The notes: generated by a model not told the origin, from the sequence alone. A DNA stretch of 64,000 nt from Minisyncoccota bacterium (GCA_041661795.1 JBAZTS010000002.1:36263-100262); one strand, 5' to 3'; positions 22,068 through 63,790 are shown, numbered from the stretch's first letter. A program made the numbers and translations.

Positions 22068-22073
22068 CTTAAA

Positions 22074-22428
22074 AGATAAGTGAGTGATTGCCCTGACATT
22101 TGTTGGGGAGGAAAGTCCGGACTCCCATCTCCGACGTAACGTCGGAGTAAACGTATTCGCTAACAGCGAACTATCGCAAGATAAGAGGTGCGAACAGAGA
22201 CGAGTCCTAATGGAAACATTAGGGGTGAAACGGTCCCGACGCCTATTTCGGGTTAGGGACTCCGACATCCGCAAGGATCGTCGGAGCTAAATCCTTGCGG
22301 GGTGCAAGACCGTATCCGCCCAGGGCGGGTGAGTCGCTTGAACCTGAGAGTAATTGAAGGTCCAGACAAATAATCACTATCCCGACGTAACGTCGGGACA
22401 CAGAATCCGGCTTATAGCTTATCTAAAC
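22074..22428 (+). ncRNA. rnpB: RNase P RNA (bacterial type A)
   Basis: GGAGGAAAGTCCGGACTCC (P4 5' strand), AGGGGTGAAACGGT, ACAGAATCCGGCTTATAG (P4 3' strand), P1 pairing agataag/cttatct; GC-rich versus surroundings. Confidence 0.85.
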
Positions 22429-22500
22429 ATATCAAGAATCTCTCCTTAACGGGGGGATTTTTGATTGATTTATTAAGGGTTTTTTGATACTTTTAACAAG

Positions 22501-39309: not shown

Positions 39310-39334
39310 TAAAGAGCTATGAAATAAAAAAAGC

Positions 39335-39900
39335 CCGCCGGTGTCTTCCGAGGAAGTCCTGGCGGGGTGGAACAGGTGGTGCGACCTTAGCTCACTCGGT
39401 GCTGTCGAGTTCGCTCGCCCGATATACTCTCCGGGTGATACGAGAGCTCGAATCTGCCGAGACGTGACGCGTGGTCACTTTTTGCTAAGGTTTTTTGGGG
39501 TGCTGCTCCTCTTCCTGTTCGGTACTTTCTAAGAACGGTTCCCACACCGTTCTCGCCGGCGAGCTTAGCTCGCGCAGGGTAGAGGCGCCTCCTAAAGGAG
39601 GCAAAACATGAGTACAAATTCGGAATTGGATTTTTGTGAGTTTCCGGACTCACTATCTCGTTTGGTGCACCTCCCGAGAAGTCCTTTTCCTTCCACTTAT
39701 TATTGGGCCAGTTTGAGATCAGCGGTGGACACTCAAACTGTTTGCGTGCTTTCACCGAGCTTGCCGGATTTACTCGGATCTTTGGTGAGATGGCGCAACC
39801 CCACAGTTTTGACCTCCCTCAGCTGCGCGCGCAACTGAGTTGTCAGCTCACCTAGTGACAGAGGCCCCCTTTTTGACCGTTTTTTCTTCTTGGTCCGGAA
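39335..39900. ncRNA. GC-rich structured non-coding locus (one or two ncRNAs; minus-strand terminator at 39335-39378); identity unresolved, SRP RNA candidate by position upstream of dnaX
   Basis: GC content far above flanks, no protein-like ORF, multiple stems (gtttgag..ctcaaac, ccgag..ctcgg), ccccgccagg...ccggcgggc + T7 on minus strand. Confidence 0.35.
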
Positions 39901-40020
39901 GGGTTTCCGTGCTACATTTTTATGCCTGTATTATACTCCTTTTGTTTTATTTGTCAAGTACCCATAATAAAGTTCTAAAAACCTTGGAATTTAGTGTTTT
40001 TGGCTATATAATTAATTAGT

Positions 40021-49698: not shown

Positions 49699-49926
49699 AT
49701 GGCTAGAAGAAAACCGGCAAGATCGATAACCATAGATAGGATGACAAGGATGATTTGCGGAGTGCTGATTCCGTCAATTATCCTTCCTCGACTACAAGAG
49801 GCGGAAGACATCGCCCTTCGGACTCTGGGGGCTTTAGGAAAGTCCCAGAGTGAAGCTCGTCATCTTTTCTGGGTGGCTATTGAGACACTCGCCAAGAGTG
49901 AGCAGATTTCCAACGGCACGCAATAG
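49699..49926 (+). CDS. GC-anomalous small ORF (75 aa) of unknown function; may instead be non-coding
   Basis: GGGGGA RBS; GC content well above flanks; 9-bp hairpin gactctggg...cccagagtg inside. Confidence 0.3.
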   Translation: MARRKPARSITIDRMTRMICGVLIPSIILPRLQEAEDIALRTLGALGKSQSEARHLFWVAIETLAKSEQISNGTQ

Positions 49927-54962: not shown

Positions 54963-55361
54963 ATGAGTGGGATCGCTTGGTTTTTCGAGGTGTTCGCTCT
55001 GCTGTTTTTCGTGGGGACTCTGGGCGTTGCTTTCATCGGACGCCGCATCCTCAAGGCGGAGCAGGAGTCGTCGGTTCTGATGTCTTTCCTCCAGATCTGC
55101 AGTGGAGCGCTCTTCATCTTCTACGTTTTCGGACTGGGTCAACTCATGGCTCTGTCTGGACTGGAAGGTGCAAGGGCGCCCCGGTGGCTGATTCCGGGCA
55201 CCTACATCACTCTCACCATCTTCAGCGCGTTGACTCGGCTGGCTCTTCCAAGGTGGGGCAGTGACAACAAAGCGATGCAACTCTGGAGTGTCGTCAGCGT
55301 CCTGACGTTCCTACTCGGCACGTTCTGCCTCGGGGCGTACTCGTCCAACTACTTCGAGTAG
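54963..55361 (+). CDS. GC-anomalous (foreign-looking) 4-TM membrane protein, unknown function
   Basis: 132 aa, GC3-rich codons in an AT-rich genome, AGGGGA RBS, own terminator. Confidence 0.6.
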   Translation: MSGIAWFFEVFALLFFVGTLGVAFIGRRILKAEQESSVLMSFLQICSGALFIFYVFGLGQLMALSGLEGARAPRWLIPGTYITLTIFSALTRLALPRWGSDNKAMQLWSVVSVLTFLLGTFCLGAYSSNYFE

Positions 55362-57417: not shown

Positions 57418-57570
57418 TTATGGGCGGTCCGGGATGGGTGGAGCGGGTGCGGGCTTGACCACTTTGGCCACGAGGCCGATTAATATGGTCAGCATTGAAA
57501 CGGGTACTACGGTGGCGATGATGACGGACGATTCCACCACCACCAGAGACCACTTGACTAGGTAGTGCAT
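57418..57570 (-). CDS. GC-rich tiny membrane protein (50 aa, MHYLVKWSLVVVESSVIIATVVPVSMLTILIGLVAKVVKPAPAPPIPDRP)
   Basis: AAAGGAGG SD; overlaps upstream ORF stop; followed by hairpin cggaccgc...gcggtccg. Confidence 0.4.
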   Translation of the reverse strand: MHYLVKWSLVVVESSVIIATVVPVSMLTILIGLVAKVVKPAPAPPIPDRP

Positions 57571-57689
57571 TCAACCTCCTTTCTTCTGAGAATCTTGGTG
57601 ATCCACAGATAGAGGTTGTATCCTGTTTGAATAACGTGGGCCATCTTTTGGCCCAGTATTGTCGTCCGATGAAACGTTGTTGTAGACAT
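57558..57689 (-). CDS. GC-rich tiny protein (43 aa, MSTTTFHRTTILGQKMAHVIQTGYNLYLWITKILRRKEVECTT)
   Basis: AAAGGAGACGTG-ATG SD; same frame as C-terminal part of listed ORF 57558-57860. Confidence 0.35.
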   Translation of the reverse strand: MSTTTFHRTTILGQKMAHVIQTGYNLYLWITKILRRKEVECTT

Positions 57690-57703
57690 CACGTCTCCTT
57701 TGG

Positions 57704-57949
57704 TTAGGCGATGGCGCCGGGGTATTCTTCGGAGATCTTCTCGATCTCTTTTTCCTCTTTCTTCACTTGGTCTGTGAGCACAAGGAAGAAAAAGATGATG
57801 GCCATGATTCCCACAAGAGTGGCAAAGGCCCATGAAAAGCTCTTGGGGAGTTGGAACCATCGTGATAAGTGATATCCTCCAAAAGTGAGAATTACCACGG
57901 CCACGGTCGCTCCAACTTTACGGAGCAAGTTGAGTAGTCCCGGGAACAT
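57704..57949 (-). CDS. GC-rich small membrane protein (81 aa, 2 TM)
   Basis: AGGAGG SD 6 nt upstream; hydrophobic helices. Confidence 0.5.
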   Translation of the reverse strand: MFPGLLNLLRKVGATVAVVILTFGGYHLSRWFQLPKSFSWAFATLVGIMAIIFFFLVLTDQVKKEEKEIEKISEEYPGAIA

Positions 57950-58193
57950 TACTCTCCTCCTTTTTGGTGTACATCTTTCGAAGTTTCTCCTGTAGAGCGT
58001 TGAGCCCCGTGAAGACCAGGGCTCCGGTCAGAAACCCGATACAAGCCAACGATCCTCGGATCTCCAATCCTGGAGGCAGTGGAACTCGGTCTGCCCATAG
58101 GACCGTGAAGAAACAGGAAGCAGCAGTTGAAAGGCCAACGAAAGTGAACCAAACCACTCTTGCGATCAACTCCAGAACTTTTCCGATTTTCAT
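57918..58193 (-). CDS. GC-rich small membrane protein (91 aa, 2-3 TM)
   Basis: GGAGGA SD 8 nt upstream; hydrophobic helices. Confidence 0.5.
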   Translation of the reverse strand: MKIGKVLELIARVVWFTFVGLSTAASCFFTVLWADRVPLPPGLEIRGSLACIGFLTGALVFTGLNALQEKLRKMYTKKEESNVPGTTQLAP

Positions 58194-58280: not shown

Positions 58281-61193
58281 ATGAAAAAAGAGAATCAATC
58301 AATAGAAATAATCGGGGCGCGTGTCCACAACTTAAAAAATGTGGATGTTTCTATACCTAAAAATAAATTGGTAGTTGTTTGCGGAGTTTCTGGTTCCGGA
58401 AAATCATCTTTAGCTTTTGATACTTTATACGAAGAGGGACAGAGAAGATATTTAGAAAGTTTGTCCTCTTATGTCAGACAGTTTTTAGGAGGATTTAAAA
58501 AACCAGATGTTGAAAAAATAATCGGCTTGTCTCCGACTATCGCCATCAACCAAAAAAGCGTTTCTTCCAATCCGCGTTCAACTGTGGGCACAATAACTGA
58601 AATTTACGATCATCTCCGTCTTCTCTTTGCTCGAGTTGGAATTCCTCATTGTCCAAATGACAACATTGTCATAACCGCTCAGACACCACAAGAAATCGCC
58701 AATAGAATTATTGACTTGGCTCATAACAACGAAATTGTTTTGCTGGCTCCAATAATCTCGGGGAAAAAGGGTCAGCACCAGGCGATTTTTGACGAGATTG
58801 AGAGGGGCGGATATTCACAGGTCAGGGTTGATGGGTATTTTTATCCCATTGCCGAAGCCAAAAATATTTCTCTGGATAAAAATAAAAAACACGATATCGA
58901 AGTTACCGTAGGTAAGTTTTTTACTGGAGTAAAAATAGATATCCAAAGAAATATATCCAAAATGGAAAGAGAGGCATTGAAAAACAAAAATAAAAAGATA
59001 GATAAGTTGATAAAAGAAGAAAAGTTAGAACTTTTAGAAAACATCAGAAAAGGACTGGCCATGGGGCAGGGAAATATTGTTGCTCATACCAAGGGGAAGG
59101 ATTTTTCCTTTTCCGAGAATTATTCCTGTTCTAAATGCGGATTTTCTTTACCCAAAATTGAACCCAGAACTTTTTCATTCAACAGTCCTTTTGGAGCTTG
59201 TAAAAATTGTCAGGGATTGGGAACTAAACTTGAAATAGATTTGGATTTGATAATCAACCCGGAAATCTCTTTGGAAGCGGGAGCTATAAAGCCCTGGTTT
59301 TCTTTAAGCCGTATGGGAAGAAGAGCTCTTGGCGCCAATTGGCAGAGATTTGTTACTGAGACCATTATTAGGGATTCTGGGCTGTCCCCAAGAACTCCTT
59401 TTGGAAAACTTCCCAAAGAAGTCCAGGATAAAATTTTATATGGTGATAAAGAAAATTATACTCATCTTAAAGACGGCGATTGGGAAGGAAAAACTTTATT
59501 TGAGGGAATTATTCCTCGCTTGGAGCGACTTTATTACGAAACTGAATCTGATTTTATCAGACAGGAACTTTCTAAATACATGCTTGAAAAAACCTGTCCC
59601 GTTTGTAATGGGTCGCGTTTAAGAGAAGAAGCATTGGCGGTAAGAGTGGGAGGAAAGAACATTTCTGAATTGACTTCAATGGCGGTTTTGGATTTTGTTA
59701 GTTTTTGCCAAAAACATATTTATGAAAAAATGTCGGAAAATCAAAAAACGGTTGCTGTTTCAATAATCAAAGAAATTTCCACTAAATCAAATTTTTTAAT
59801 TAACGTTGGTTTGGAATATATGAACTTGGGAAGGTCAGCGACTACTTTGTCAGTAGGAGAAAATCAAAGAATCCGCCTGGCTACCCAGTTGGGTTCTGGA
59901 TTGTCTGGAGTGATTTATGTTTTAGACGAACCGACTATTGGGCTTCATCCTCGCGACACTGACCGTCTCATAAAAACATTAAAAGAACTTAGAGATTTAA
60001 ATAATACCGTGATTGTGGTGGAACATGATGAGAGGGTTATAGAAAGCGCCGATTGGGTTATTGAAATTGGACCATTAGCCGGAGAAGAAGGTGGCAAGGT
60101 TGTTTTTGAAGGAACGCCATCAGATTTGAAAAAATCAAAAACGTTAACTGGATTATATTTTGCCGGCAAGAAAAAAGCGCAATCGGGACTTTCTAAAAAT
60201 AATTCTGAAAATAAAGAATTTATAAAACTGTATGGCGCTTCACAGTTTAATTTAAAAAACATAAATCTTTCCATTCCTTTAAAAAAATTTGTCTGTGTGG
60301 CAGGAGTTTCGGGCTCGGGTAAAAGCACGTTAATGTTAGATGTTTTTGCCAAGGCCCTTCAGAAAGAAGTTCTTAGGATGAGCGTGGCTGTAGGTGAATA
60401 TAAAAAACTTGAGGGGGAAAGAAATATAGACAAAGTGGTTATTATTGACCAAAGTCCTATCGGCAGAACCCCTCGTTCCAATCCGGCTACTTATACGGGA
60501 ATTTTTACTCCCATTAGACAATTTTTCACTCGCTTGGAAGAGTCGCAGATAAGGGGATATGGGCCATCATATTTTAGTTTCAACGTTAAGCCGGGAAGAT
60601 GTGAGGCCTGCAGAGGGGAAGGATTTAAAAAGGTGGAGATGTATTTTTTGCCGGATATGTACGTAGAGTGTGAAGTTTGTAAAGGCACCAGATTTTCTCC
60701 CGAGGTTTTGGATGTTAAATATAAAAACAAAAACATTGCTGATGTTCTTTCTATGAGCGTTAAGGAAGCGCTGGCGTTTTTTCACCAGTTTCCTTTTATT
60801 GGCGATAAGTTAAAAATTCTTGATGAAATCGGTCTTGGATATATGAAACTGGGACAGCCGGCGACAACTTTGTCGGGAGGAGAAGCTCAAAGGATAAAAC
60901 TTTCCGATGAACTTGCCAAAAGAGCTACAGGAAGGACTATTTATATTTTAGACGAACCGACTGTGGGACTTCACTTTGAAGACACAAAAAAACTTTTATA
61001 TATTTTGCGCTCGTTGGTTCTAAAAGGTAATACGGTTTTAGTTATAGAACACAATCCTGATGTTTTAAAAGAATCGGACTGGATTATTGAACTTGGTCCC
61101 GAAGGTGGAGACAAGGGAGGAAAAATAATTTTTGAGGGAACACTGGAAGAGATAAAAAAGAAAAAAACAATGACGGGGAAGTATTTAATATGA
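58281..61193 (+). CDS. uvrA: Excinuclease ABC subunit A
   Basis: Two ABC modules ([20 protein letters not shown]), Zn fingers CSKCGF...[12 protein letters not shown]...CEVCKG; 970 aa. Confidence 0.95.
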
Positions 61194-61411
61194 AGATAAT
61201 AATCATCGTAAAACCAAATAAAAAAGAAAATAAGGTTGTGAAAATAGGAGAGAACATTTTTGAAATTTATACGAATCAACCGGCTAAAGAAAATAAAGCC
61301 AATTTGGATATTATTCAACAAATGTCCAAGTATTTTAAAGTATCAAAATCAAAGGTTTCTATATCTTCCGGATTAAAGTCAAAGAAGAAAATTTTGGAAA
61401 TAAATATATAA
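61190..61411 (+). CDS. DUF167 (YggU/UPF0235) family protein
   Basis: VKPN.K.....I......I....P..E.KAN.....Q..K.F.VSKS.V.I.SGL.SK.K.L.I. Confidence 0.65.
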   Translation: MKIIIIVKPNKKENKVVKIGENIFEIYTNQPAKENKANLDIIQQMSKYFKVSKSKVSISSGLKSKKKILEINI

Positions 61412-61443
61412 AAAAAGGGGGCTCCCGGTGTTGCTGGGAGCCC
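61411..61443 (-). terminator. Minus-strand terminator (gggctcccagcaacaccgggagccc + T7)
   Basis: Perfect stem followed by TTTTTTT on minus strand, ending GC-rich island. Confidence 0.5.
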
Positions 61444-61960
61444 AAAGTGCGGTAAGGAGGTCAATGTACGATGCGGTGCCTGCCGTGCGTCGCTTCGCTC
61501 GTTCGGGTCTTGGTGGTTCAGATCAGGGCCAGTCGTGCCCGAAAACTTAACTTTCTGGCCCATTGCTTCTCGGCACGCATGGTTTCTCCTTGCATGGATT
61601 TTTGGTCCACGCAGCTCTGCCCTCAGCGCTTGACGGTGGCCTCGTCGTTGGTGCGGTGGTTGTTCTGACGCTGTTGCATGGGATTTCTCCTCGCGTGAAC
61701 GTCGTCGGTTGTTGGTGCTAGCTATGGCTCAAGTCAAGCTTTCTTTTCGGTGAGCTTGACGAGCAGTGCTAGCGCCTGTTCTGGGTTTCGTTTTTTATCG
61801 GTATAACCTTCACAAGGTTATACCAGGGTTTCCTTCCTGATTGGCGGTCAAGAAGGTTGTTTAATCATCCAGCATTGTCCTAACTAACGGAACGGCGGTT
61901 CGACGTCCACGTGCATCGCTTTCCTCCTTATGTAGTTTACTTATTTCAGGATAAAACAAA
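61444..61960. other. GC-rich non-coding island (candidate structured RNA or degraded foreign DNA) in convergent intergenic region
   Basis: GC content well above flanks, stops in most frames, hairpins (ggtataacc..ggttatacc), possible minus-strand promoter TTGACT near 61950 and terminator at 61411-61443. Confidence 0.3.
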
Positions 61961-61991
61961 AACGGCTATTAGTCAAATATTTTTGTGAAAC

Positions 61992-62693
61992 TTACTTTTG
62001 ATGCTGAAACACATCTATTATCAAATTTTGGTCGGGGATAATTTCTTTTTTTAATGCTTTGACAATGACCTGAGCAACTTGATTTGGAGTATGTTTTGGT
62101 TCATGGTCGGGAAAACATGTTTTAAACATTCCAGTATCGGTTGAGCCGGGAGTAATTGTAAAAACGTCTATATTGTATTTGGAAAGTTCGTCTTTTAACG
62201 ACTGAGAAAGATTTATAATCGCCGCTTTAGTTAGAGAATAAATAGAGAGTCCTTCAATCCCGTAAAATCCGGCTCCAGAAGAAATATTGACGATTAATCC
62301 GGATTTCTTTTCTTTCATAATTTCAAGAACCCTTTTTATAACATTTAAAGTTCCTTTGATGTTAACGTCTATAATAAAATTCCAGTCAGGATAATCGGTT
62401 TCTTCAAAATTTTTATTCTGGGCAACAGCCGCATTGTTTACTAAAATATCTATACTTCCGAATTTATCAATCGTTTCTTCAATAACTTTTTCAACATCTT
62501 CTTTTGTTCTTATATCGCCTTGAGTAACTAAAAAATTGGGATTTTTTAAAATCACTTCCGTATCCAAATTATCGGGGATATTAATGGAAACCGTAGAAAC
62601 TTTACATCCTTGGTCAAGCAAGAGTTTGGCTGTTTCAAGACCTATTCCCGACGTTGCTCCAGTTATAAATACAACTTTATTTTTTATGTCCAT
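61992..62693 (-). CDS. Short-chain dehydrogenase/reductase (SDR)
   Basis: VVFITGATSGIGLETAKLL; NNAA; catalytic Y...K. Confidence 0.8.
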   Translation of the reverse strand: MDIKNKVVFITGATSGIGLETAKLLLDQGCKVSTVSINIPDNLDTEVILKNPNFLVTQGDIRTKEDVEKVIEETIDKFGSIDILVNNAAVAQNKNFEETDYPDWNFIIDVNIKGTLNVIKRVLEIMKEKKSGLIVNISSGAGFYGIEGLSIYSLTKAAIINLSQSLKDELSKYNIDVFTITPGSTDTGMFKTCFPDHEPKHTPNQVAQVIVKALKKEIIPDQNLIIDVFQHQK

Positions 62694-62743: not shown

Positions 62744-63790
62744 ATGGATACCCAAAGCTTTGTAATTCTCATAATTATCCAAGCCGCTTTTCTTGCGGGT
62801 ATTTATTTTGTATTTAAAAAATTATCTACAAAAAAGCCGGAGGATTCTTCTTTCTTGATGATCCAAAATCAGCTTAATGAGCTGACTAAAAATATGGACT
62901 CTAAACTGGGGGAATCACATAAGGCCGCTCAGCACCAATTCTCCGAGAGCGCCAAAATTATTCGCGATGTTACCGAACGCTTAACCCGTCTTGATGAAAC
63001 CAATAAGCAGGTTATTGATATCACCGACCAGCTTAAGAATCTTCAAGATATTTTAAAAAATCCAAAACAAAGGGGAGTTCTTGGGGAATATTATCTAGAA
63101 ACAGTTTTAAAAAATGTTTTGCCTCCCGGAGTTTTTCAAATGCAATACGAATTTGCCGACGGCAATATCGTTGATGCGGTAGTTTTTGTGAAAGACAAAA
63201 TAATTCCCATTGATTCCAAGTTCAGTTTGGAAAATTACAACAGAATTCTGGAAGCTAAAACGGATGAGGACAGAAAAAGATTTGAAAACGCTTTTTCCCA
63301 AGATTTAAAAAACAGAATTGATGAAACATCCAAATATGTTCGTCCGGAAGAAAAAACGACCGAGTTTGCTTTTATGTTTATTCCATCCGAAGCGGTGTTT
63401 TACGACTTATTAATAAACAAGGTTGGAGTAATGCAATCCAACACCAGGAGCTTGATTGATTATGCTTCGGGAGAAAAGAAAGTGGTAATTGTTTCTCCAA
63501 CAACATTCTTGGCTTATTTACAAACTGTGCTTCAGGGCCTTAAAGCCATGCAGATAGAAGAATCGGCTAAAGAAATCAAAAAAAGAGTTATTGATTTGGG
63601 AAAACATCTGGCCGGTTACGACAGTTATTTTAGTAAGCTTGGAAATCATCTTTCTACGACCGTTAATGCTTATAACTCGGCTTATAAGGAACTGGGAAAA
63701 ATTGACAAGGATGTTTTGAAAATCTCTGGCGTAGCTCCGGGGATAGAAGTCAGCCAGATAGAAAAACCAAGAGAAGAAGAGGAGGAATAA
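62744..63790 (+). CDS. rmuC: DNA recombination protein RmuC
   Basis: N-terminal TM, coiled coil, GVLGEYYLETVLKNVLPPG..QMQYEF.DG..VDAVVFV....IPIDSKFSLENY RmuC core. Confidence 0.75.
   Translation: MDTQSFVILIIIQAAFLAGIYFVFKKLSTKKPEDSSFLMIQNQLNELTKNMDSKLGESHKAAQHQFSESAKIIRDVTERLTRLDETNKQVIDITDQLKNLQDILKNPKQRGVLGEYYLETVLKNVLPPGVFQMQYEFADGNIVDAVVFVKDKIIPIDSKFSLENYNRILEAKTDEDRKRFENAFSQDLKNRIDETSKYVRPEEKTTEFAFMFIPSEAVFYDLLINKVGVMQSNTRSLIDYASGEKKVVIVSPTTFLAYLQTVLQGLKAMQIEESAKEIKKRVIDLGKHLAGYDSYFSKLGNHLSTTVNAYNSAYKELGKIDKDVLKISGVAPGIEVSQIEKPREEEEE

What the first reader, a model, noticed from the sequence alone, without database searches (positions are those of the whole stretch)
61412..61960. Second GC-rich non-coding island in a convergent intergenic region, with a minus-strand terminator at its low end
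The region between the DUF167 gene and the SDR gene has high GC and stops in most frames, leaving only a 65-codon Cys/Arg-rich ORF. It contains hairpins (ggtataacc ttcacaa ggttatacc). It ends on the minus strand with gggctcccagcaacaccgggagccc followed by T7. A TTGACT motif near 61950 could be its promoter. This parallels the 39.3-39.9 kb island, which suggests the same origin or RNA class.
Basis: seen in the sequence. Interest (0 to 1): 0.5.

Follow-up and report, generated by a model that had tools for sequence, protein, structure and literature searches.

The report
Orphan GC-rich RNA cassette, function unknown
A 550-base GC-rich insert unique to one tiny-genome (Paceibacterota) bacterium looks like a self-contained unit that makes a folded, mostly non-coding RNA, but it has no relatives anywhere searched, so its role cannot yet be established.

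Summary
Window 61412-61960 is 53% GC in a 36% GC Paceibacterota genome (z=+4.3). It has stops in all frames, several individually significant hairpins, a minus-strand intrinsic terminator abutting the DUF167 stop, and a TTGACT-17-TATCCT promoter-like site at 61976-61948.

It tests as non-coding: no 3-base periodicity, no codon-usage signal, stops at random frequency, and no protein, Pfam or Rfam match.

Folding favours the minus strand (z -4.8 against -2.9). The predicted RNA closes with a 5'-3' helix pairing UAAGGAGG with ACCUCCUUA. The minus strand also carries three Shine-Dalgarno+ATG sites (P~0.002) opening 10, 18 and 20-codon ORFs. This is odd because core genes here lack Shine-Dalgarno sequences.

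The island is absent from the closest relatives. They have at this site a 7-nt gap, a 38-nt bidirectional terminator, or unrelated orphan genes. No homologue turned up in phage, plasmid, viral or metagenome collections, so covariation cannot be tested.

It shares no sequence with the 39 kb island. "Same RNA class" is unsupported; "same kind of foreign-looking orphan cassette" is plausible.

Best reading: a lineage-specific, acquired cassette making a ~530-nt structured RNA (confidence ~0.4). Interest is modest.

The parts
61948..61976 (-). Sigma-70-like promoter: -35 TTGACT (61976-61971), 17-nt spacer, -10 TATCCT (61953-61948). The inferred transcription start is about 61941. The site begins 16 nt after the SDR stop codon.
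   Evidence: Consensus scan, 9 of 12 matches; sequence read. Not shown to be active.
61410..61941 (-). Predicted ~530-nt transcript (the GC-rich island), A/C-rich and U-poor on this strand.
   Evidence: Bounded by the promoter-like site and the terminator. MFE -177.5 kcal/mol, z -5.96 with the terminator. Core without terminator: z -4.8 on minus against -2.9 on plus. The same helix set is 10 kcal/mol more stable on minus than mirrored on plus.
61884..61930 (-). SD1 UAAGGAGG (61930-61923), a 6-nt spacer, then micro-ORF1 ATG 61916 to TAG 61884 (MHVDVEPPFR, 10 aa).
   Evidence: SD1 and this AUG are fully paired in the predicted ensemble.
61623..61692 (-). SD2 GAGGAG (61692-61687) then micro-ORF2 ATG 61679 to TGA 61623 (MQQRQNNHRTNDEATVKR, 18 aa).
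   Evidence: Enrichment of SD+ATG sites: 3 observed against 0.20 expected, P=0.002.
61518..61591 (-). SD3 AAGGAG (61591-61586) then micro-ORF3 ATG 61580 to TGA 61518 (MRAEKQWARKLSFRARLALI, 20 aa; 25 aa if started at the in-frame ATG at 61595).
   Evidence: All three micro-ORFs share one frame.
61453..61474 (-). 3' arm of the closing helix: GCAUCGU (61474-61468) and ACCUCCUUA (61461-61453). The latter is an anti-SD-like element identical to the canonical 16S rRNA 3' tail. It pairs with GCGAUGC (61919-61913) and UAAGGAGG (61930-61923).
   Evidence: Pair probabilities 0.97-0.99. Duplex -29.3 kcal/mol, P about 0.01 against shuffles and 0.025 against real GC-rich control windows. No comparative support.
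61695..61910 (-). 5' domain, closed by a 10-bp helix GUGGACGUCG/CGACGUUCAC (61910-61901/61704-61695). It encloses hairpins Ha (61856-61832, 9 bp with a U-G pair), Hb (61825-61799, 12 bp) and Hc (61773-61717, 6+4+8 bp, includes two GCTAGC palindromes).
   Evidence: Local z-scores are -4.0, -5.6 and -5.2. The U-G pair in Ha would be a C-A mismatch on the plus strand.
61410..61443 (-). Intrinsic terminator: stem 61443-61436/61426-61419, 9-nt loop, U7 at 61416-61410 overlapping the DUF167 stop codon (61409-61411).
   Evidence: dG -17 kcal/mol. On the plus strand the hairpin is followed by AAAGUG, so it is not a terminator for DUF167.
61471..61668 (+).
   Evidence: It has no promoter on the plus strand, no Pfam hit, and is not in the 15-billion protein collection. 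Its frame has a negative codon score.

Best explanation
The island is a lineage-specific, self-contained expression cassette of foreign-like composition. It was inserted between the SDR stop codon and the DUF167 stop codon, at a site where relatives carry only a short terminator or other orphan cassettes.

It is transcribed on the minus strand, from its own sigma-70-like promoter and probably also by read-through from SDR. Transcription ends at the strong intrinsic terminator that abuts DUF167.

The ~530-nt product acts mainly as a structured RNA rather than as a protein template.
- Its two ends pair: UAAGGAGG and AUG at the 5' end pair with ACCUCCUUA at the 3' end, which locks the first ribosome-binding site.
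- A GC-rich 5' domain of three stable hairpins is closed by a second long-range helix.
- A less structured, C/A-rich 3' domain exposes two further SD+AUG sites that may load ribosomes onto 18-20-codon ORFs.

Shown: the composition, the signals, the hairpins, the absence of a coding signature, and the absence of the island from relatives.

Inferred: transcription, the global fold, any translation of the micro-ORFs, and the foreign origin. The cellular role is unknown. My guess is an accessory (mobile-element-type) riboregulator or a dual-function small RNA.
For: Composition and boundaries:
- GC is 53% against 36% for the genome, z +4.3.
- Promoter-like site and terminator.

Structure:
- Four local hairpins are each significant against shuffles.
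- Core fold z is -4.8 on minus against -2.9 on plus, comparable to RNase P RNA in the same window (-5.1).
- The same helices are 10 kcal/mol better on minus.
- The 5'-3' duplex has P about 0.01-0.025.

Not coding:
- Periodicity chi-square P=0.39, whereas DUF167, SDR, i54, i57_81 and i49 are significant.
- Codon log-odds are negative in all six frames, as for RNase P.
- Stops number 8, 8 and 4 per frame, against about 6.4 expected at random from base composition.
- There is no Pfam hit reaching its family cut-off (one weak sub-threshold match, E=0.0057), no PHROG-type or protein homology, and no Rfam family.

Insertion:
- L084 has a 7-nt UvrA-SDR gap and L085 a 38-nt bidirectional terminator. 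L087 and L004 have unrelated SD-led orphan genes at the same site in the same orientation.
- The locus is identical in independent assemblies, so it is not an assembly artefact.
Against: - No homologue was found anywhere, so there is no covariation or conservation evidence.
- All available copies are 100% identical.
- Coding GC-rich islands nearby also give strongly negative fold z-scores (i54 ORF -3.8), so the z-score alone does not prove a functional RNA fold.
- The three SD+ATG sites (P=0.002) point to translation.
- Cassettes at the same site in relatives, and three of the five islands here, are protein-coding.
- The -10 box is weak (TATCCT).
- No expression data are available.
Confidence: 0.4

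Rival explanations
1. It is a micro-protein operon. The transcript is an mRNA whose function lies in one or more of the SD-led peptides (10, 18 and 20-25 aa), like the SD-led small-protein cassettes nearby. The hairpins would serve only mRNA stability or translational control.
For: All three SD-like sites on the minus strand are followed by ATG at 4-8 nt: 3 observed against 0.20 expected, P=0.002. SD-led starts are the hallmark of orphan cassettes in this lineage, while core genes lack them. SD2 and SD3 are predicted to be partly accessible.
Against: - The ORFs cover only about 150 of 530 nt.
- Their lengths equal the random expectation of about 25 codons for this composition.
- The peptides are hydrophilic and have no recognisable motif.
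- There is no periodicity or codon-usage signal.
- SD1 and AUG1 are fully sequestered.
- There are no homologues to test conservation of the reading frames.
Confidence: 0.2
2. It is the decayed remnant (pseudogene) of an acquired small-protein cassette, with no present function. The promoter, terminator and SD motifs are leftovers.
For: - Relatives carry intact orphan protein genes at exactly this site and in this orientation: L087 145 aa, L004 83 aa.
- The three SD+ATG sites are in one frame.
- That frame has the least negative codon score.
- GC at codon position 2 is lowest in that frame over 61940-61563.
Against: - No frame is restorable with one or two lesions; stop density is random in every frame.
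- Periodicity is not significant.
- Such heavy decay should have eroded GC toward 36% and broken the perfect 11-, 9- and 8-bp stems. GC is still 53% and the stems are perfect.
- No homologue of any frame was found.
Confidence: 0.17
3. It is a long 3' UTR or insulator of the SDR gene. It would not be an independent gene: SDR transcription runs into the island, and the stack of hairpins plus the terminator ends it and shields against convergent read-through from uvrA-DUF167, which lost its own terminator.
For: - No terminator lies between the SDR stop (61992) and the island.
- The only strong terminator for the minus strand is at 61443-61410.
- L085 has a single bidirectional terminator at the equivalent position.
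- The hairpin after DUF167 lacks a U-tract on the plus strand.
Against: A 38-nt terminator suffices in relatives. This reading does not explain the 530 nt of foreign composition, the SD+ATG sites, the closing helix or the promoter-like site. It is compatible with the best explanation rather than exclusive of it.
Confidence: 0.13
4. It is a type I toxin-antitoxin-like locus. A hydrophobic peptide on the plus strand (52 codons, 61563-61721, or 28-40 codons at 61428-61550 behind UAAGGAGGU) would be repressed by the overlapping minus-strand RNA.
For: The plus-strand ORFs are hydrophobic. A perfect 9-nt SD, UAAGGAGGU, precedes an ATG at 61464. Both strands fold better than shuffles.
Against: - No promoter-like site is on the plus strand.
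- SD-ATG spacing is only 2-3 nt.
- The 52-codon ORF has a TTG start and no SD.
- The hydrophobicity is the expected by-product of a G/U-rich strand.
- That SD is simply the complement of the minus-strand anti-SD arm.
- There is no codon signal and no homologues.
Confidence: 0.04

Closest known systems
Unclassified GC-rich intergenic candidates from the GC-IGR ncRNA discovery pipeline (Stav et al. 2019, PMC6429828; Narunsky et al. 2024, PMC11109978)
   Same: A long, GC-rich intergenic region in an AT-rich genome, with predicted structure and no ORF. This is exactly the signal that pipeline uses.
   Different: That pipeline ranks candidates by the number of representatives and by covariation. 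With a single representative, this one would fall in their 'Unnamed: insufficient evidence to classify' bin. No named motif or Rfam family matches.
Dual-function small RNAs that also encode a small peptide (for example S. aureus RNAIII/hld, E. coli SgrS/SgrT, B. subtilis SR1/SR1P; from general knowledge)
   Same: A structured RNA of a few hundred nucleotides with its own promoter and terminator, containing SD-led small ORFs.
   Different: No sequence or structural homology. No known target or partner. Here there are three micro-ORFs, and the first is locked by a 5'-3' helix. Neither translation nor base-pairing function has been shown.
Strain-specific orphan (ORFan) gene cassettes at variable intergenic hot spots
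   Same: - Foreign-like base composition and absence from close relatives.
- The same site is occupied by unrelated orphan genes in L087 and L004.
- Own promoter, SD and terminator.
- Neighbouring islands i49, i54 and i57 are of this type.
   Different: This cassette (and the 39 kb one) has no ORF with a coding signature. No integrase, terminal repeats or target duplications were found.
Cis anti-SD sequestration elements (RNA thermometers, and translational riboswitch expression platforms)
   Same: An SD and its AUG are base-paired with a CCUCC-containing anti-SD sequence.
   Different: The pairing partners are about 470 nt apart rather than local. The controlled ORF is only 10 codons. No sensor domain is recognisable. 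The host's own genes do not use SD sequences.

Membership tests
Any Rfam 15 RNA family (including tmRNA, 6S, SRP, RNase P, OLE, GOLLD, ROOL, HEARO, raiA) | Covariance-model match at or near the gathering score | tested here: not met
   No match in the island at gathering thresholds. At E<=10 only seven noise hits of 9-15 bits, against cut-offs of 37-80. ARAGORN finds no tmRNA or tRNA there. RNase P RNA is elsewhere, at 22072-22430.
Intrinsic (Rho-independent) terminator, minus strand | GC-rich stem-loop immediately followed by a U-tract | tested here: met
   An 8-bp stem with 7 G-C pairs, a 9-nt loop, then CC and U7; dG -17 kcal/mol, z -3.4. The simple scan missed it because its loop limit is 8 nt. 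Activity was not tested.
Sigma-70-type promoter | -35 and -10 hexamers with 16-18-nt spacing | tested here: met
   TTGACT-17-TATCCT, 9/12 matches, with the invariant A2 and T6 of the -10 box present. The region has 6 such sites against 1.9 expected in shuffles. Activity is not testable here.
Protein-coding gene or recent pseudogene | Three-base periodicity or codon-usage bias in one frame | tested here: not met
   Chi-square P=0.39 for the whole island and 0.14 for the 5' two-thirds, against P<=0.002 for DUF167, SDR, i54 and i57_81. Codon log-odds are negative in all six frames.
Protein-coding gene or recent pseudogene | Homology on translation | tested here: not met
   - Pfam: only one weak match far below its cut-off (E=0.0057, 16.9 bits against 33.2, for one plus-strand frame).
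- The 111-aa open stretch has 0 hits in 1.84 billion representatives.
- tblastn of both codon-aligned frames against phages: none.
- The six-frame concatenate gave none at E<=10.
Same RNA class or origin as the 39.3-39.9 kb island | Detectable sequence similarity | tested here: not met
   blastn with word size 7 gives only 10-11-nt chance matches. The local alignment score is not above shuffles: P=0.33 for the same strand and 0.15 for the opposite strand.
Same RNA class or origin as the 39.3-39.9 kb island | Shared architecture (promoter, terminator, non-coding, SD/anti-SD pairing) | tested here: inconclusive
   Both have a minus-strand promoter and terminator, no coding signal, and predicted GGAGG/CCUCC pairings. 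However, the 39 kb island folds better on the plus strand (z -6.9 against -3.4). No structural alignment was possible.
Structured ncRNA by comparative criteria | Covariation that preserves the predicted helices | not testable with these tools
   No homologue was found in relatives' syntenic loci, phages or plasmids, IMG/VR or JGI metagenomes. All copies of the locus are identical.
Type I toxin-antitoxin | Small hydrophobic toxin ORF with its own promoter, overlapped by an antisense RNA | tested here: not met
   Hydrophobic ORFs exist on the plus strand, but no promoter-like site is on that strand. Start signals are poor and there is no coding signal.
Csr/Rsm-type protein-sponge RNA | Over-represented GGA motifs exposed in hairpin loops | tested here: not met
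   11 GGA motifs against 9.9 +/- 2.7 expected; most are paired in the predicted fold.
Transposable element / MITE / integron cassette | Terminal inverted repeats, target-site duplication, attC-like site, or a nearby recombinase | tested here: not met
   There is only a 25-nt, 72% AT-rich inverted match at the ends, seeded by a 7-mer that is expected by chance. No direct repeats flank the island. There are no paralogues in 81 kb of the same contig. There is no transposase or integrase among the neighbours.
DGR template repeat | A near-copy (variable repeat) elsewhere plus a reverse transcriptase | tested here: not met
   No similar sequence is present elsewhere in the window or in the extended contig.

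The most novel reading that the evidence does not exclude
i61 (with the 39 kb island) may be the RNA-only cargo of a previously undescribed class of small, exchangeable expression cassettes in Paceibacterota. Each cassette would have an AT-rich sigma-70 promoter, a GC-rich SD-bearing payload and a terminator. They occupy fixed intergenic hot spots around uvrABC-DUF167-SDR.

In a lineage whose core genes do not use Shine-Dalgarno sequences, and where many Parcubacteria lack the 16S anti-SD, an RNA that carries the canonical 16S tail sequence ACCUCCUUA could act in trans on the SD-led mRNAs of such cassettes. That would be an RNA-level control of foreign genes.
Probability: 0.06. Interest if true: 0.75.

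Novelty: new member of a known kind. Interest (0 to 1): 0.3.

Why it matters
On its own, this is one more unclassifiable GC-rich intergenic RNA candidate. It would matter only if it were shown to be expressed and functional.

The wider pattern it belongs to is more interesting. Core genes in this Paceibacterota lineage lack Shine-Dalgarno sequences. Lineage-specific, GC-richer orphan cassettes inserted at the same intergenic sites in different species all carry strong ones.

If that pattern is general, it would give a simple sequence marker for recently acquired genes in CPR bacteria. It would also raise the question of how, or whether, SD-led messages are translated by ribosomes that may lack an anti-SD.

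Tried and rejected
Known RNA families and RNA-sponge motifs:
- Rfam at gathering and at E<=10 gave nothing, and ARAGORN found nothing.
- A Csr-type sponge is rejected: GGA motifs are not enriched.

Similarity within the same genome:
- Dot-plot-type comparison of the five GC-rich islands and RNase P gave no similarity.
- Local alignment of i61 against i39 was not above shuffles.
- There are no paralogues in the rest of the window or in 17 kb more of the same contig, so a DGR template or repeat element is rejected. No rRNA was found there either, so the 16S anti-SD could not be checked.

Homologue searches, all negative:
- Syntenic loci of five relatives by blastn and tblastx.
- Phage and plasmid blastn.
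- Three exact or degenerate DNA patterns in IMG/VR.
- Twelve degenerate 24-nt patterns covering both halves in JGI metagenomes and IMG/VR.

Protein homology, all negative:
- The six-frame concatenate is unreliable because it did not recover the known self ORF.
- Pfam gave only one weak sub-threshold match.
- HMMER of the 111-aa open stretch against 1.84 billion proteins found nothing.
- tblastn of the stop-masked frames against phages found nothing.

Variant alleles:
- All protein clusters from the locus are singletons, apart from the i49 cluster, which holds two further short sequences that were not examined.
- The contigs from other samples are 100% identical.

Other ideas tested:
- Stop-codon recoding is rejected because TAA, TAG and TGA all occur in the SD frame.
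- Terminal inverted repeats are only a chance-level AT-rich match.
- A faint low-GC2 pattern in the SD frame did not survive a formal periodicity test.

Full report
**Context.** The window is from a Candidatus Paceibacterota (CPR/Patescibacteria) MAG. The UvrA protein encoded at 58281-61193 is identical to an NCBI protein of that name, and the genome is 35.9% GC. The finding lies between DUF167 (61190-61411, +) and an SDR oxidoreductase (61992-62693, -), with RmuC following at 62744 (+). Because SDR is on the minus strand, the island lies directly downstream of SDR. It ends at the DUF167 stop codon.

**Observation check.** The island is real and far from chance.
- GC: 61437-61936 is 53.4% GC, z=+4.3 relative to all 500-nt windows. 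It is the third GC-richest stretch in the window, after 54.9-55.4 kb and 39.3-39.8 kb.
- Frames: every frame has 4-8 stops. The 65-codon Cys/Arg-rich ORF is at 61471-61668 (+).
- Hairpin: the quoted hairpin is an 11-12-bp perfect stem with a 3-nt loop at 61825-61799.
- Terminator: the minus-strand terminator has stem 61443-61436/61426-61419, a 9-nt loop, then CC and U7 at 61416-61410, with dG -17 kcal/mol. The consensus scan did not list it only because its loop limit is 8 nt.
- Promoter: TTGACT lies at 61976-61971. With TATCCT at 61953-61948 it makes a 9/12 sigma-70-like site.
- Assembly: the sequence is 100% identical in independently assembled contigs from ENA and two Logan runs, so it is not an assembly artefact.

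**Coding or not.**
- No frame is open.
- Three-base periodicity is absent: chi-square P=0.39 for the whole island. DUF167 (222 nt, P=0.008), SDR, and the neighbouring island ORFs i54, i57_81 and i49 are significant. RNase P RNA (P=0.19) and the 39 kb island (P=0.93) are not.
- A codon log-odds model trained on the GC-rich island ORFs is negative in all six frames, as for RNase P, and positive in the true frame of real ORFs.
- Stop density (8, 8 and 4 on minus) equals the roughly 6.4 expected from base composition.
- Translations reach no Pfam family cut-off; one plus-strand frame gives a weak sub-threshold match (E=0.0057, 16.9 bits against a 33.2-bit cut-off).
- The longest open stretch (111 aa, 61396-61728 minus) has no hit among 1.84 billion representative proteins.
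- Stop-masked translations of the two codon-aligned frames hit nothing in phages.
- A concatenated six-frame query also found nothing. I discount that search because it failed to recover a 40-aa self ORF that is in the collection.
- NCBI annotates no CDS between DUF167 and SDR, since their accession numbers are consecutive.

**RNA features.**
- No Rfam family matches, even at E<=10, and no tmRNA or tRNA is found.
- The minus strand from promoter to terminator folds at -177.5 kcal/mol (z -5.96).
- Without the terminator, z is -4.8 on minus against -2.9 on plus. RNase P RNA in the same window gives -5.1.
- The minus-strand helix set loses 10 kcal/mol when mirrored onto the plus strand, because several U-G pairs become C-A mismatches. 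This favours the strand defined by the promoter and terminator.
- High-probability helices:
  - P1a UAAGGAGG/CCUCCUUA (61930-61923/61460-61453).
  - P1b GCGAUGC/GCAUCGU (61919-61913/61474-61468).
  - P2 (61910-61901/61704-61695).
  - Hairpins Ha (61856-61832), Hb (61825-61799) and Hc (61773-61717), each significant on its own.
- The bipartite 5'-3' duplex is better than 99% of shuffles and 97.5% of real GC-rich control windows.

One caution applies. A coding GC-rich island (the i54 ORF) also gives z -3.8, so these statistics do not by themselves prove a selected RNA fold.

**Shine-Dalgarno motifs.** On the minus strand every SD-like 5-mer is followed by ATG at 4-8 nt: 3 sites against 0.20 expected, P=0.002. 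They open ORFs of 10 codons (61916-61884), 18 codons (61679-61623) and 20 codons (61580-61518), all in one frame. These lengths are what random sequence of this composition gives.

The first SD and AUG are fully paired in P1. The other two are partly accessible.

This is notable because the host essentially does not use SD sequences. Only 1-2 of 69 non-overlapping ORFs of 100 aa or more have an SD-like motif before their first start, and many starts sit just after a TATAAT-like box. A published survey found the 16S anti-SD motif in only 48% of Parcubacteria (PMC9297842). I could not find this organism's 16S in the 81 kb available.

**Comparative context.** No relative closer than 78% UvrA identity exists in the protein collection. 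The closest relatives show the following at the equivalent site.
- L084: UvrA and SDR are 7 nt apart.
- L085: DUF167 and SDR are separated by a 38-nt bidirectional terminator.
- L087: an unrelated 145-aa SD-led orphan gene (45% GC against 36% background) with its own promoter and terminator sits at the same place and in the same orientation.
- L004: an 83-aa SD-led zinc-ribbon-like orphan sits there.

None resembles i61 by blastn or tblastx. i61 is therefore a lineage-specific insertion into a site that repeatedly hosts orphan cassettes.

Searches for the island elsewhere were all negative:
- phage and plasmid records;
- IMG/VR;
- JGI metagenome contigs, using twelve degenerate 24-nt probes over both halves.

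There is also no paralogue in the window or in 17 kb more of the same contig. Covariation therefore cannot be assessed.

**Relation to the other islands.** The five GC-rich islands share no sequence.
- Three are small protein genes with SD, periodicity, promoter and terminator: 49699-49926 (75 aa), 54963-55361 (132 aa, membrane), and a four-gene operon at 58193-57418.
- None has a Pfam or PHROG match at a meaningful level.
- The 132-aa protein has no homologue at all among 5.8 billion proteins.
- The island proteins I looked up are singleton clusters, except the 75-aa i49 protein, whose cluster holds two further short sequences that I did not examine.
- The 39 kb island resembles i61 in lacking a coding signal and in having a minus-strand promoter and terminator. 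It folds better on the plus strand, and no structural equivalence could be shown.

'Same RNA class' is thus unsupported. 'Same kind of foreign-looking orphan cassette' is a fair description.

**Interpretation.** I favour, at about 0.4, a self-contained acquired cassette whose product is a ~530-nt structured RNA. It would be transcribed from its own promoter and probably also by read-through from SDR, since no terminator lies between them, and it would end at the terminator abutting DUF167.

The argument against a decayed gene is that decay heavy enough to randomise all frames should also have eroded the 53% GC and the perfect stems.

The rivals are:
- a true micro-protein operon (0.2);
- a dead cassette remnant (0.17);
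- a mere 3'-UTR or insulator of SDR (0.13, not exclusive of the best reading);
- a type I toxin-antitoxin-like pair (0.04). This last one is disfavoured by the lack of any plus-strand promoter and by poor start signals.

In the nomenclature of the GC-rich-IGR discovery pipeline this would be an 'Unnamed' candidate, because it has a single representative (PMC11109978).

**Verdict.** The feature is real and accurately observed. It is probably an orphan non-coding or micro-ORF-bearing RNA cassette, but it is unclassifiable without homologues or expression data. Interest is modest (0.3). The accompanying pattern, SD-led GC-richer orphan cassettes at fixed hot spots in an SD-less CPR lineage, is the part most worth following up.

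Noticed in passing
whole window; L004, L084, L085, L087: Core genes essentially lack Shine-Dalgarno motifs: 1-2 of 69 ORFs of 100 aa or more, and many starts sit 6-10 nt after a TATAAT-like box, which looks leaderless. By contrast, every lineage-specific orphan small gene examined, here and in relatives, has a strong SD. This fits the report that only 48% of Parcubacteria keep the 16S anti-SD (PMC9297842).
   Followed up: partly
window 54.8-62.0 kb; L087 3246-3608, 4779-5864, 9453-9890; L004 7398-7649; L085 11139-11381: The intergenic sites uvrB|uvrC, uvrC|uvrA and DUF167|SDR are empty in some relatives. In others they hold mutually unrelated orphan cassettes, often GC-richer than the genome, each with its own promoter, SD and terminator. 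This looks like recurrent insertion hot spots with no recognisable recombinase or repeats.
   Followed up: partly
window 54963-55361 (+): A 132-aa, four-helix membrane protein, 57% GC with GC3 of 74%, has the promoter TTGACT-17-TATACT and a terminator. It is a complete ORFan: the only hit among 5.8 billion proteins is itself.
   Followed up: yes
window 57418-58193 (-): A GC-rich operon of four SD-led small, mostly membrane, proteins (91, 81, 43 and 50 aa) lies between the PaaX-like gene and uvrA. There is no Pfam or PHROG match, and the operon is absent from relatives.
   Followed up: partly
window 39325-39957: The 39 kb island has a near-consensus minus-strand promoter (TTGACA-16-TATAAT, 39957-39930) and a terminator (39365-39335 plus a U-run). 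It has no coding signal (P=0.93). A local CCUCC/GGAGG palindrome lies at 39585-39605. Yet it folds better on the plus strand (z -6.9 against -3.4), and a plus-strand SD+ATG opens a 76-codon ORF at 39608-39838. Its strand and nature remain unresolved.
   Followed up: partly
window 61409-61450 compared with L085 9195-9232: A relative has a compact bidirectional terminator (A-run, hairpin, T-run) between DUF167 and SDR. Here the hairpin after DUF167 has no downstream T-run on the plus strand. The uvrA-DUF167 operon may therefore read through antisense into the island and SDR.
   Followed up: no
window 61397-61421 and 61923-61947: A 25-nt imperfect (72%) inverted repeat brackets the island (GAAATAAATATATAAAAAAAGGGGG / CCTCCTTATGTAGTTTACTTATTTC). 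It is AT-rich and seeded by a 7-mer, so it is probably chance, but it sits exactly at the insertion boundaries.
   Followed up: no
NCBI annotates it as a hypothetical protein (WC705_01860). It is not an RNA island.
   Followed up: yes
tool behaviour: A long concatenated six-frame query to the word-indexed protein search returned nothing, not even the 40-aa self ORF (P0121) that is a cluster representative in that collection. Negative results from such concatenated queries should not be trusted.
   Followed up: yes
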